Below are positions 19,909-26,059 of a stretch of 64,000 bases of DNA, one piece after another. The notes beneath the pieces are model-generated. The model saw only the letters and a program-made list of their open reading frames with translations. It was not told the origin of the DNA and searched no databases. Source of the stretch: the human T2T-CHM13v2.0 reference genome, Homo sapiens; the NCBI RefSeq assembly GCF_009914755.1, contig NC_060929.1. The stretch is one strand, 5' to 3'. Numbering within the stretch: the stretch's first letter is position 1; every line of letters begins with the position of its first letter. The translations under genes were made by a program, and so were the position numbers.

Positions 19909-22512
19909 TTATAGACAAAACTTCAAAAGCACAGGCAGCAAAACTAAAAATAGATCGATGGGATTATATAAAACTAAAAAAGTAGTTTTTTCCAAATCTG
20001 TGAAGAAAGTCATTGGTAGCTTGATGGGGATGGCATTGAATCTGTAAATTACCTTGGGCAGTATGGCCATTTTCACAATATTGATTCTTCCTACCCATGA
20101 GCATGGAATGTTCTTCCATTTGTTTGTATCCTCTTTTATTTCCTTGAGCAGTGGTTTGTAGTTCTCCTTGAAGAGGTCCTTCACATCCCTTGTAAGTTGG
20201 ATTCCTAGGTATTTTATTCTCTTTGAAGCAATTGTGAATGGGAGTTCACTCATGATTTGGCTCTCTGTTTTTCTGTTGTTGGTGTATAAGAATGCTTGTG
20301 ATTTTTGTACATTGATTTTGTATCCTGAGACTTTGCTGAAATTGCTTACCAGCTTAAGGAGATTTTGGGCTGAGACAATGGGGTTTTCTAGATATACAAT
20401 CATGTCATCTGCAAACAGGGACAATTTGGCTTCCTCTTTTCTTAATTGAATACCCTTTATTTCCTTCTCCTGCCTGATTGCCCTGGCCAGAACTTCCAAC
20501 ACTATGTTGAATAGGAGTGGTGAGAGAGGGCATCCCTGTCTTGTGCCAGTTTTCAAAGGGAATGCTTCCAGTTTTTGCCCATTCAGTATGATATTGGCTG
20601 TGGGTTTGTCATAGATAGCTCTTATTATTTTGAAATACGTCCCATCAATACCTAATTTATTGAGAGTTTTTAGCATGAAGGGTTGTTGAATTTTGTCAAA
20701 GGCTTTTTCTGCATCTATTGAGATAATCATGTGGTTTTTGTCTTTGGTTCTGTTTATATGCTGGATTACATTTATTGATTTGCGTATATTGAACCAGCCT
20801 TGCATCCCAGGGATGAAGCCCACTTGATCATGGTGGATAAGCTTTTTGATGTGCTGCTGGATTCGGTTTGCCAGTATTTTATTGAGGATTTTTGCATCAA
20901 TGTTCATCAAGGATATTGGTCTAAAATTCTCTTTTTTTGTTGTGTCTCTGCCCGGCTTTGGTATCAGAATGATGCTGGCCTCATAAAATGAGTTAGGGAG
21001 GATTCCCTCTTTTTCTATTGATTGGAATAGTTTCAGAAGGAATGGTACCAGTTCCTCCTTGTACCTCTGGTAGGATTCGGCTGTGAATCCATCTGGTCCT
21101 GGACTCTTTTTGGTTGGTAAGCTATTGATTATTGCCACAATTTCAGCTCCTGTTATTGGTCTATTAAGAGATTCAACTTCTTCCTGGTTTAGTCTTGGGA
21201 GAGTGTATGTGTTGAGGAATTTATCCATTTCTTCTAGATTTTCTAGTTTATTTGTGTAGAGGTGTTTGTAGTATTCTCTGATGGTAGTTTGTATTTCTGT
21301 GGGATCGGTGGTGATATCCCCTTTATCATTTTTTATTGTGTCTATTTGATTCTTCTCTCTTTTTTTCTTTATTAGTCTTGCTAGTGGTCTATCAATTTTG
21401 TTGATCCTTTCAAAAAACCAGCTCCTGGATTCATTGATTTTTTGAAGGGTTTTTTGTGTCTCTATTTCCTTCAGTTCTGCTCTGATTTTAGTTATTTCTT
21501 GCCTTCTGCTAGCTTTTGAATGTGTTTGCTCTTGCTTTTCTAGTTCTTTTAATTGTGATGTTAGTGTGTCAATTTTGGATCTTTCCTGCTTTCTCTTGTG
21601 GGCATTTAGTGCTATAAATTTCCCTCTACACACTGCTTTGAATGCATCCCAGAGATTCTGGTATGTTGTGTCTTTGTTCTCTTTGGTTTCAAAGAACATC
21701 TTTATTTCTGACTTCATTTCGTTATGTACCCAGTAGTCATTCAGGAGCAGGTTGTTCAGTTTCCATGTAGTTGAGCGGCTTTGAGTGAGATTCTTAATCC
21801 TGAGTTCTAGTTTGATTGCACTGTGGTCTGAGAGACAGTTTGTTATAATTTCTGTTCTTTTACATTTGCTGAGGAGAGCTTTACTTCCAACTATGTGGTC
21901 AATTTTGGAATAGGTGTGGTGTGGTGCTGAAAAAAATGTATATTCTGTTGATTTGGGGTGGAGAGTTCTGTAGATATCTATTAGGTCCGCTTGGTGCAGA
22001 GCTGAGTTCAATTCCTGGGTATCCTTGTTGACTTTCTGTCTCGTTGATCTGTCTAATGTTGACAGTGGGGTGTTAAAGTCTCCCATTATTATTGTGTGGG
22101 AGTCTAAGTCAATTTGTAGGTCACTCAGGACTTGCTTTATGAATCTGGGTGCTCCTGTATTGGGTGCATATATATTTAGGATAGTTAGCTCTTCTTGTTG
22201 AATTGATCCCTTTACCATTATGTAATGGCCTTCTTTGTCTCTTTTGATCTTTGTTGGTTTAAAGTCTGTTTTATCAGAGACTAGGATTGCAACCCCTGCC
22301 TTTTTTCGTTTTCCATTGGCTTGGTAGATCTTCCTCCATCCTTTTATTTTGAGCCTATGTGTGTCTCTGCACGTGAGATGGGTTTCCTGAATACAGCACA
22401 CTGATGGGTCTTGACTCTTTATCCAATTTGCCAGTCTGTGTCTTTTAATTGGAACATTTAGTCCATTTACATTTAAAGTTAATATTGTTATGTGTGAATT
22501 TGATCCTGTCAT
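19909..22512 (-). CDS. ORF2: L1 ORF2p N-terminal ~843 aa (endonuclease + reverse transcriptase) plus a short read-through tail; 867 aa open
   Basis: [14 protein letters not shown] start. EN motifs QETH, GDFN, KIDH, SDH; PIP-like [14 protein letters not shown]. No stop until 19909, which lies in antisense host L1MA sequence. Confidence 0.9.
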
Positions 22513-22575
22513 TATGATGTTAGCTGGTGATTTTGCTCATTAGTTGATGCAGTTTCTTCCTAGTCTCGATGGTCT

Positions 22576-23592
22576 TTACATTTTGGCATGATTTTGCAGC
22601 GGCTGGTACTGGTTGTTCCTTTCCATGTTTAGCGCTTCCTTCAGGAGCTCTTTTAGGGCAGGTCTGGTGGTGACAAAATCTCTCAGCATTTGCTTGTCTG
22701 TAAAGTATTTTATTTCTCCTTCACTTATGAAGCTTATCTTGGCTGGATATGAAATTCTGGGTTGGAAATTCTTTTCTTTAAGAATGTTGAATATTGGCCC
22801 CCACTCTCTTCTGGCTTGTAGGGTTTCTGCCGAGAGATCCGCTGTTAGTCTGATGGGCTTCCCTTTGAGGGTAACCCGACCTTTCTCTCTGGCTGCCCTT
22901 AACATTTTTTCCTTCATTTCAACTTTGGTGAATCTGACAATTATGTGTCTTGGAGTTGCTCTTCTCGAGGAGTATCTTTGTGGCGTTCTCTGTATTTCCT
23001 GAATCTGAACTTTGGCCTGCCTTGCTAGATTGGGGAAGTTCTCCTGGATAATATCCTGCAGAGTGTTTTCCAACTTGGTTCCATTCTCCGCATCACTTTC
23101 AGGTACACCAATCAGACGTAGATTTGGTCTTTTCACATAGTCCCATATTTCTTGGAGGCTTTGCTCATTTCTTTTTATTCTTTTTTCTCTAAACTTCCCT
23201 TCTCGCTTCATTTCATTCATTTCATCTTCCATTGCTGACACCCTTTCTTCCAGTTGATCGCATCGGCTCCTGAGGCTTCTGCATTCTTCACGTAGTTCTC
23301 GAGCCTTGGTTTTCAGCTCCATCAGCTCCTTTAAGCACTTCTCTGTATTGGTTATTCTAGTTATACATTCTTCTAAATTTTTTTCAAAGTTTTCAACTTC
23401 TTTGCCTTTGGTTTGAATGTCCTCCCGTAGCTCAGAGTAATTTGATCGTCTGAAGCCTTCTTCTCTCAGCTCGTCAAAGTCATTCTCCATCCAGCTTTGT
23501 TCTGTTGCTGGTGAGGAGCTGCGTTCCTTTGGAGGAGGAGAGGCGCTCTGATTTTTAGAGCTTCCAGTTTTTCTGTTCTGTTTTTTCCCCAT
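22576..23592 (-). CDS. ORF1: L1 ORF1p, intact 338 aa
   Basis: MGKKQNRKTG...QPLQNHAKM. REKG and ARR motifs intact; YPAKLS reads YPAKIS. Confidence 0.95.
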   Translation of the reverse strand: MGKKQNRKTGSSKNQSASPPPKERSSSPATEQSWMENDFDELREEGFRRSNYSELREDIQTKGKEVENFEKNLEECITRITNTEKCLKELMELKTKARELREECRSLRSRCDQLEERVSAMEDEMNEMKREGKFREKRIKRNEQSLQEIWDYVKRPNLRLIGVPESDAENGTKLENTLQDIIQENFPNLARQAKVQIQEIQRTPQRYSSRRATPRHIIVRFTKVEMKEKMLRAAREKGRVTLKGKPIRLTADLSAETLQARREWGPIFNILKEKNFQPRISYPAKISFISEGEIKYFTDKQMLRDFVTTRPALKELLKEALNMERNNQYQPLQNHAKM

Positions 23593-24479: not shown

Positions 24480-24494
24480 ACTTTCTTCACAGAA

Positions 24495-25805
24495 TTGGAA
24501 AAAACTACTTTAAAGTTCATATGGAACCAAAAAAGAGCCCTCATCGCCAAGTCAATCCTAAGCCAAAAGAACAAAGCTGGAGGCATCACACTACCTGACT
24601 TCAAACTTTACTACAAGGCTACAGTAACCAAAACAGCATGGTATTGGTACCAAAACAGAGATATAGATCAATGGAACAGAACAGAGCCCTCAGAAATAAC
24701 ACCGCATACCTACAACTGTCTGATCTTTGACAAACCTGAGAAAAACAAGAAATGGGGAAAGGATTCCCTATTTAATAAATGGTGCTGGGAAAACTGGCTA
24801 GCCATATGTAGAAAGCTGAAACTGGATCCCTTCCTTACACCTTATACAAAAATCAATTCAAGATGGATTAAAGATTTAAACGTTAGACCTAAAACCATAA
24901 AAACCCTAGAAGAAAACCTAGGCATTACCATTCAGGACATAGGCATGGGCAAGGACTTCATGTCCAAAACACCAAAAGCAATGGCAACAAAAGACAAAAT
25001 TGACAAATGGGATCTAATTAAACTAAAGAGCTTCTGCACAGCAAAAGAAACTACCATCAGAGTGAACAGGCAACCTACAAAATGGGAGAAAATTTTCGCA
25101 ACCTACTCATCTGACAAAGGGCTAATATCCAGAATCTACAATGAACTCAACCAAATTTACAAGAAAAAAACAAACAACCCCATCAAAAAGTGGGCGAAGG
25201 ACATGAACAGACACTTCTCAAAAGAAGACATTTATGCAGCCAAAAGACACATGAAAAAATGCTCATCATCACTGGCCATCAGAGAAATGCAAATCAAAAC
25301 CACAATGAGATACCATCTCACACCAGTTAGAATGGCAATCATTAAAAAGTCAGGAAACAACAGGTGCTGGAGAGGATGTGGAGAAATAGGAACACTTTTA
25401 CATTGTTGGTGGGACTGTAAACTAGTTCAACCATTGTGGAAGTCAGTGTGGCGATTCCTCAGGGATCTAGAACTAGAAATACCATTTGACCCAGCCATCC
25501 CATTACTGGGTATATACCCAAATGACTATAAATCATGCTGCTATAAAGACACATGCACACGTATGTTTATTGCGGCATTATTCACAATAGCAAAGACTTG
25601 GAACCAACCCAAATGTCCAACAATGATAGACTGGATTAAGAAAATGTGGCACATATACACCATGGAATACTATGCAGCCATAAAAAATGATGAGTTCATG
25701 TCCTTTGTAGGGACATGGATGAAATTGGAAATCATCATTCTCAGGAAACTATCGCAAGAACAAAAAACCAAACACCGCATATTCTCACTCATAGGTGGGA
25801 ATTGA
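24495..25805 (+). CDS. ORF2: L1 ORF2p C-terminal half (436 codons open, no proximal ATG)
   Basis: [15 protein letters not shown]...CWRGC..HCWWDC...FSLIGGN*. Continues where the inverted N-half stops. In-frame TAG upstream at 24456. Confidence 0.8.
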
Positions 25806-26059
25806 ACAATGAGATCACATGGACACAGGAAAGGGAATATCACACTCTGGGGACTGTGGTGGGGTGGGGGGAGGGGGGAGGGATAGCATTGGGAGATATA
25901 CCTAATGCTAGATGACGAATTAGTGGGTGCAGCGCACCAGCATGGCACATGTATACATATGTAACTAACCTGCACAATGTGCACATGTACCCTAAAACCT
26001 AAAGTATAATAAAAAAAGAAAAGAAAAAAAAAATTAAAAAAAAAAACAAAGAAACAAAA
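25806..26059 (+). other. L1PA 3'UTR with G-rich tract and poly(A) tail
   Basis: ggggactgtggtggggtggggggaggggggaggg (G4-prone), aataaa, A-rich tail. Confidence 0.9.

What the first reader, a model, noticed from the sequence alone, without database searches (positions are those of the whole stretch)
19909..26059. A 'split' LINE-1: every ORF still open, arranged divergently around one bidirectional promoter
Seen: ORF1 (338 aa), ORF2-N (EN+RT with catalytic motifs intact), ORF0 and ORF2-C all lack internal stops or frameshifts. Together the two ORF2 halves cover the whole protein with a ~10-codon overlap (TFFTD/ELEKTT). The sense promoter points into ORF1/ORF2-N and the antisense promoter points into ORF0/ORF2-C. 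Most 5'-inverted L1s are heavily truncated; this one lost only ~19 nt. Inference: the locus cannot retrotranspose in cis as an intact unit, but could supply ORF1p and an EN/RT core in trans, and possibly two ORF2 halves. Standard intact-L1 screens would miss it. Caveats: open frames may only reflect young age, the YY1 site is lost, and ORF2 has a FTAEF>FTAES change.
Basis: partly seen in the sequence, partly recalled or inferred. Interest (0 to 1): 0.7.

Follow-up and report, generated by a model that had tools for sequence, protein, structure and literature searches.

The report
Almost complete LINE-1 inserted back-to-front
This is a young human LINE-1 jumping gene whose front three-quarters is flipped, likely by a known copying error (twin priming); its reading frames are still open, likely only because the copy is young, and it was scored as not expressed in 12 of 12 cell lines, so it is probably an ordinary dead copy with an uncommon shape.

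Summary
The anatomy is real. One L1PA2-type insertion sits between 13-bp target-site duplications inside an older L1. L1 nt 20-4520 is inverted and nt 4488-end is forward, with a 33-nt duplication at the junction and 4-nt microhomology to the target. This is the described twin-priming pattern. Keeping the 5' end to nt 20 is uncommon (0 of 100 sampled 5' ends were inverted).

The open frames need no selection. Private changes are 15 nonsynonymous to 7 synonymous, the same ratio as 20 relatives (434:204). Four of those 20 are fully intact, and the chance of no stop or frameshift is about 0.2.

The 'two halves' claim is weak. ORF2-N is residues 1-844 plus 23 foreign residues, lacks wrist and C-terminal domains, and carries private F480S, G691R and V695A. 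ORF2-C has no in-frame ATG before M990. The locus is already in a published table (hg38 chr5:166141191-166145692) as not expressed in 12 of 12 lines, even when 99% unmethylated.

One lead remains: a predicted splice from an ORF0 donor to an acceptor 13 nt past the junction would give an in-frame ORF0::ORF2(839-1275) protein.

The parts
19970..19982 (+). Left target-site duplication (13 bp); its last 4 nt are also the first 4 nt of the inverted arm (microhomology expected for internal priming)
19979..24479 (-). Inverted arm, L1 nt 20-4520 (5'UTR minus 19 nt, ORF1, ORF2 1-844), 98.4% identical to intact relative L037
19979..20011 (-). Left copy of the 33-nt junction duplication (one mismatch, E839D)
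   Evidence: (I1)
19909..22512 (-). ORF2-N, 867 aa = ORF2 1-844 (EN, tower, RT; no wrist or CTD) plus 23 residues from flanking DNA; private F480S, G691R, V695A, Y226C
22576..23592 (-). ORF1, 338 aa, intact
23593..24479 (-). 5'UTR with sense and antisense promoters; first 19 nt lost, which removes most of the YY1 motif (motif position +13 to +21 recalled)
   Evidence: RefSeq enhancers 23725-24793 from the hub annotation
24048..24263 (+). ORF0, 71 aa, with donor-like sites after 24153 (phase 1) and 24238 (phase 2)
   Evidence: 71-aa ORF0 also in 17 of 20 relatives
24479..26010 (+). Forward arm, L1 nt 4488 to the 3' end (ORF2 835-1275, 3'UTR); first 33 nt are the right copy of the duplication
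24470..24492 (+). Predicted splice acceptor 13 nt inside the forward arm, phase 1, in frame with the ORF0 donor at 24153
   Evidence: pyrimidine count only; no transcript evidence
24945..25805 (+). Only ATG-started part of ORF2-C (M990-1275, 286 aa)
26011..26059 (+). Poly(A) tail, partly decayed
26060..26072 (+). Right target-site duplication

Best explanation
This is a single L1PA2-type LINE-1 insertion with a 5' inversion, likely made by twin priming, likely unable to move again and likely decaying neutrally. Shown: target-site duplications, poly(A) tail, opposed arms, a 33-nt junction duplication, 4-nt microhomology, and an older host L1 that is colinear across the site. Inferred mechanism: the bottom-strand nick primed cDNA from the poly(A) tail back to nt 4488; the top-strand end annealed at about nt 4520 and primed a second cDNA that ran to nt 20; the two cDNAs were joined. 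The divergent layout is the automatic result of such an event when the 5'UTR survives, not an adaptation. The frames are open because only about 22 private substitutions have accumulated. At most the locus would give low, conditional amounts of ORF1p and a truncated ORF2p with endonuclease activity.
For: Structure. Class is common in print: 5' inversion in 18% of germline L1, overlap in 44 of 106 germline inversions (PMC12016303 passages); internal duplication in 283 of 1703, median 22 bp (bioRxiv 2024.08.27.596794 passages). Neutral decay: N:S 15:7 versus 434:204 in 20 relatives, Fisher p=1.0; expected disabling hits 1.55, P(0)=0.21; 4 of 20 relatives fully intact. Silence: 'not_expressed' in 12 of 12 cell lines, L1EM 0 in 11 and 0.026 RPM in 2102Ep, including K562 at 0.9% methylation; zero 3' read-through in 3 of 3 5-aza samples (PMC10879037 supplement; mapping checked). 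Wrist (863-1061) and CTD reported as required for efficient retrotransposition, and the wrist docks on the 688-695 turn where G691R and V695A lie (PMC10830420 passages).
Against: Only 22 private changes: the 95% interval of the N/S ratio relative to relatives is 0.39-2.9, so weak selection is not excluded. The 20 relatives were the top 20 of 39 hits by 5'UTR similarity and overstate intactness; L1Base lists only 25 intact GAG/A-class copies in GRCh38. The expression data cover cell lines only, measure the sense strand, and subtract upstream signal. RefSeq lists two enhancers over this 5'UTR. Methylation is partial in several lines (0.32-0.50). The break at 844 lies near the unresolved 851-871 stretch before the wrist, a plausible place for a split.
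Confidence: 0.85

Rival explanations
1. Conditional source of ORF1p and a truncated, endonuclease-competent ORF2p (1-844) when demethylated in tumours, germ line or early embryo, as described for other retrotransposition-incompetent L1 loci; no selection implied.
For: ORF1 and EN catalytic residues intact. First poly(A) signal on the minus strand at 19203, about 700 nt past the ORF2-N stop. Truncated EN, ENz and ENRT proteins are stable and toxic in cells (PMC4176336 passages). [quoted passage not shown] Trace signal in 2102Ep.
Against: Not expressed in 12 of 12 lines, nor after 5-aza; 92% methylated in H1.
Confidence: 0.11
2. Natural bipartite ORF2p: antisense-promoter RNA is spliced from the ORF0 donor (24153) to the acceptor at 24492, giving ORF0(1-35)::ORF2(839-1275), which complements ORF2-N in trans for Alu or mRNA mobilisation.
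For: The splice is in frame, 472 aa, ending at the native C-terminus; the acceptor ties for the best pyrimidine tract among 53 candidates. ORF0 has two donors and forms fusions (review passage). Split ORF2p fragments can drive Alu at low level (PMC4889948 results part 1). The break is near the thumb-wrist boundary.
Against: No transcript evidence; the partner half is not expressed. Published complementation splits EN from RT+Cys, not RT from wrist, and is inefficient without tags. G691R and V695A hit the wrist-docking turn. Neutral N:S. All 5 strong acceptors in ORF2 of L037 are phase 1, so the frame match is not special.
Confidence: 0.03
3. A canonical full-length L1 inserted first and was inverted afterwards by a genomic rearrangement, or the shape is an assembly artefact.
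For: The 5' end is almost complete, which is unusual for twin priming (median 5' truncation at 4.5 kb in tumours).
Against: One breakpoint coincides with the end of the target-site duplication with 4-nt microhomology, and 33 nt are duplicated, as twin priming predicts. The same 4501-bp arm is in hg38 and its 5' junction was detected in 12 of 12 cell lines.
Confidence: 0.01

Closest known systems
[quoted passage not shown]
   Same: Opposed arms, TSD, poly(A), microhomology at the internal priming site, short duplication at the junction (33 nt; reported medians 22 and 12 bp).
   Different: Only 19 nt are lost, so the promoter, ORF1 and ORF0 survive; the inverted arm (4.5 kb) is three times the forward arm, opposite to the usual ratio (medians 0.54 and 1.51 kb).
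L1PA2 subfamily (GAG/A class)
   Same: 97.4-98.6% identical in the inverted arm to 19 of 20 nearest copies (96.5% for one with a gap); 18 of 20 read GAG at the diagnostic triplet.
   Different: This copy reads GAA there; the published table labels the inverted arm L1HS.
Retrotransposition-incompetent L1 loci that could express truncated ORF2p (PMC4176336)
   Same: Promoter, ORF1 and EN-RT coding sequence in place, C-terminus missing.
   Different: Truncation is by inversion, so stop read-through cannot yield full ORF2p.
Bipartile Alu retrotransposition assay (PMC4889948)
   Same: Idea of two ORF2p fragments acting together.
   Different: Engineered; split between EN and RT with RT and Cys on one chain; here the split is after the RT and the second half has no start codon.

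Membership tests
Twin-primed 5'-inverted L1 | Target-site duplication around the whole element, with an EN-type site | tested here: met
   13-bp TSD at 19970/26060, starting AAAA after T; host L1 colinear across the site
Twin-primed 5'-inverted L1 | 5' part inverted, internal breakpoint next to the left TSD, 3' part forward with poly(A) | tested here: met
Twin-primed 5'-inverted L1 | Microhomology between target end and internal priming site | tested here: met
   4 nt shared at 19979-19982; 1 nt at the inner junction
Twin-primed 5'-inverted L1 | Small deletion or duplication at the inversion point | tested here: met
   33-nt duplication
L1PA2 | 3'UTR diagnostic triplet GAG (not ACA/ACG) | tested here: inconclusive
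   Window reads GAA, one change from GAG; 18 of 20 nearest relatives read GAG
L1PA2 | Presence at the orthologous site in apes | not testable with these tools
   No ape genomes held
Retrotransposition-competent L1 (FLI-L1) | Colinear full-length element with contiguous 1275-aa ORF2 | tested here: not met
   ORF2 split at 844/835 on opposite strands
Expressed L1 source locus | Locus-specific transcription | tested here: not met
   not_expressed in 12 of 12 cell lines in PMC10879037 supplement; tissues and antisense strand not covered
Domesticated or selected L1 ORF | Deficit of nonsynonymous changes since insertion | tested here: not met
   N:S 15:7 versus 434:204; interval 0.39-2.9
Bipartite ORF2p | Both fragments translatable and complementing | not testable with these tools
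   ORF2-C has no ATG before M990; needs the predicted splice

The most novel reading that the evidence does not exclude
The inversion placed ORF2's C-terminal third under the L1 antisense promoter, 13 nt from a splice acceptor in frame with ORF0's donor. The locus makes an ORF0::wrist-CTD fusion (472 aa) from one strand and ORF1p plus EN-RT (1-844) from the other, and the two assemble into the first natural split ORF2p, invisible to intact-L1 screens. Promoter-retaining inverted L1s would then be a hidden class of trans-acting or dominant-negative ORF2 sources.
Probability: 0.03. Interest if true: 0.75.

Novelty: new member of a known kind. Interest (0 to 1): 0.2.

Why it matters
If the spliced ORF0::ORF2-C product and complementation were shown, inverted L1s would need to be counted as possible sources of reverse transcriptase or of dominant-negative fragments.

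Tried and rejected
Selection on the frames: rejected. YY1 loss as a route to escape silencing: the locus is 92% methylated in H1 and silent even when unmethylated. Upstream in-frame ATG for ORF2-C: none. Other donors (24238, 24301, 24382) to the 24492 acceptor give no ORF2 fusion. Literature search for the hg38 coordinates in main texts: 0 papers; found only in a supplement. No row for guessed coordinates in the antisense-transcript EST tables of PMC4908685, uninformative because that screen required overlap with a gene exon. Searches for a described split or promoter-retaining inverted L1 listed none on this locus; I saw listings and abstract starts only. Census: 100 of 1373 canonical 5' ends and all 17 non-canonical hits examined; no genome-wide count. 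A phrase search for L1HS/L1PA2 3'-truncated rows returned nothing. No fold or complex prediction was run, since halves of a solved protein would pass by likeness. Ostertag and Kazazian 2001, Szak 2002 and Denli 2015 were not held; trialanine values for F480, G691 and V695 lie in a bioRxiv supplement I could not see.
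Full report
Anatomy. The window holds one young L1 inside an older, roughly 70%-identical L1 that is colinear across the site: host 17677-19978 maps to nt 2732-5036 and 26068-26852 to nt 5035-5826 of relative L037. A 13-bp target-site duplication lies at 19970-19982 and 26060-26072. Window 19979-24479 is L1 nt 4520 down to 20 (98.4%), and 24479-26033 is nt 4488-6039 (98.6%), followed by poly(A). 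The 33 shared nt form an inverted repeat with one mismatch. The last 4 nt of the left duplication are also the first 4 of the inverted arm.

Mechanism of origin (inferred). These features match twin priming as described in PMC2912911 (abstract, background and start of results read). Inversions occur in 165 of 897 germline L1s, and 44 of 106 germline inversions have overlapping arms (PMC12016303 passages). In tumours 283 of 1703 inversions carry an internal duplication, median 22 bp, and the median 5' truncation is at 4.5 kb (bioRxiv 2024.08.27.596794 passages). PMC12350158 counts 1,047 such inversions among polymorphic insertions (passages). What is uncommon here is that the second cDNA reached nt 20. 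Of the first 100 listed of 1373 exact canonical 5' ends, none was followed directly by young sense-strand L1; one had 89%-identical sense L1 after a homopolymer, which I read as an older host (upper 95% bound 3%). Of 17 hits departing from the motif at nt 19, two are inversions: this one and L014, whose inverted arm is only about 51 nt.

Frames. ORF1 (338 aa), ORF2-N (867 aa), ORF0 (71 aa) and the ORF2-C frame are open. ORF2-N matches ORF2p 1-844 with EN and RT catalytic residues and the P819/Y823 helix clamp intact, then reads 23 foreign residues. It lacks the wrist (863-1061) and CTD, both reported as needed for efficient retrotransposition (PMC10830420 passages). ORF2-C covers 835-1275 but has no in-frame ATG before M990. 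Residue labels for the forward arm are one too low; the private changes there are R855L and S1256R.

Are open frames surprising? I compared the top 20 of 39 non-self hits by 5'UTR similarity. Eighteen read GAG at the subfamily triplet, so the element is L1PA2-type. Counting changes shared by at most two of 21 copies, the window has 15 nonsynonymous and 7 synonymous; the relatives have 434 and 204, with 21 stops and 24 frameshifts. The expected number of disabling hits at the window's divergence is 1.55, so P(none)=0.21, and 4 of 20 relatives have both ORFs whole; 17 of 20 have a 71-aa ORF0. The N/S ratio relative to relatives is 1.0 (0.39-2.9): strong purifying selection is excluded, weak selection is not. 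The sample favours little-diverged copies; L1Base lists 25 intact GAG/A copies among 146 in GRCh38 (passages), so intactness is rarer genome-wide. Private F480S, G691R and V695A are in 0 of 20 relatives; the last two lie in the 688-695 turn that anchors the wrist. Their effect is untested; PMC10830420 does not mention F480 or G691, and the trialanine table (bioRxiv 721357, passages only) is in a closed supplement.

Expression. I recalled an hg38 interval of the same length and found it in the supplement of PMC10879037: chr5:166141191-166145692, minus strand, 4501 bp, 'L1HS', '3prime-truncated', 'intactORF1'. The offset predicts the next listed L1HS within about 170 bp of where I found a full-length minus-strand L1 in this genome, so the match is sound. 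It was detected in 12 of 12 lines, with methylation from 0.009 (K562) to 0.92 (H1), and is 'not_expressed' in all 12; read-through is zero in 3 of 3 5-aza samples. L1s without the YY1 motif tend to be less methylated, but that has not switched this one on. Limits: cell lines only, sense strand only, upstream signal subtracted, and supplementary file 6 was cut when stored. RefSeq marks two enhancers over the 5'UTR (hub annotation).

Trans activity. Truncated EN and ENRT proteins can be stable and toxic, but the construct stopped after the RT gave no significant damage, and its low Alu mobilisation was ascribed to read-through (PMC4176336 passages). Split ORF2p can drive Alu weakly when EN is separated from RT+Cys (PMC4889948 abstract and results part 1 of 4); I found no test of a split after the RT (listing).

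ORF0 has two splice donors and can form fusions (PMC4859970 passages; PMC4908685 passages). A donor-like site after 24153 (phase 1; that it is ORF0's described first donor is recalled) and an acceptor-like site at 24492 would join ORF0 1-35 to ORF2 839-1275, 472 aa. The acceptor ties for the best tract among 53 candidates by a crude pyrimidine count. A junction falls within 40 nt of such a site at about 2% of ORF2 positions, but all 5 strong sites in L037's ORF2 are phase 1, so an in-frame target is generic. PMC5860796 passages named no acceptor at this place. There is no transcript evidence.

Verdict. Most likely a dead-on-arrival, neutrally ageing L1PA2 with an uncommon near-complete twin-primed inversion (0.85). 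A conditional source of ORF1p or truncated ORF2p is possible (0.11); a working split ORF2p is unlikely (0.03). New member of a known kind; interest 0.2.

Noticed in passing
window 19979-20011 and 24479-24511: The 33-nt junction duplication brackets the inverted arm as an inverted repeat, so a natural rearrangement between the copies would flip the arm to colinear; 33 nt is probably too short for efficient recombination (recalled). Checkable in pangenome haplotypes.
   Followed up: no
L014 (G000:C2:158520344-158523366): An older L1 (88% identical) with only about 51 nt of the extreme 5' end inverted, ending at the same nt 20, joined to ORF2 near nt 4590: an inversion with a roughly 4.5-kb internal deletion.
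   Followed up: partly
L002 (G000:C4:167326193-167329356): Another young 5'-inverted L1 whose forward arm begins within a few nt of this element's junction (near nt 4485); possible breakpoint hot spot.
   Followed up: partly
window 16011-19978 and 26068-26852: Old host L1 (66-72% identical to L1PA2, plus strand), partly unmasked in NCBI's file; the young L1 landed in its ORF2.
   Followed up: partly
L029, L037, L045, L047: Four L1PA2 copies with both ORFs whole (338 aa and 1274-1277 aa) among the 20 nearest relatives.
   Followed up: partly
window 37553-38266: About 700 bp of AT-rich minisatellite (15-bp unit, about 38 copies) followed by a CA repeat.
   Followed up: no
window 6001-14000: GC-raised stretch (46-50% against about 36% elsewhere), not masked and with no annotated gene; holds a 142-aa ORF at 12560-12988 (-). 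Possibly an old repeat; not examined.
   Followed up: no
window 41033-41116: 84-bp L1 3'-end fragment, 92% identical to L1PA2.
   Followed up: no
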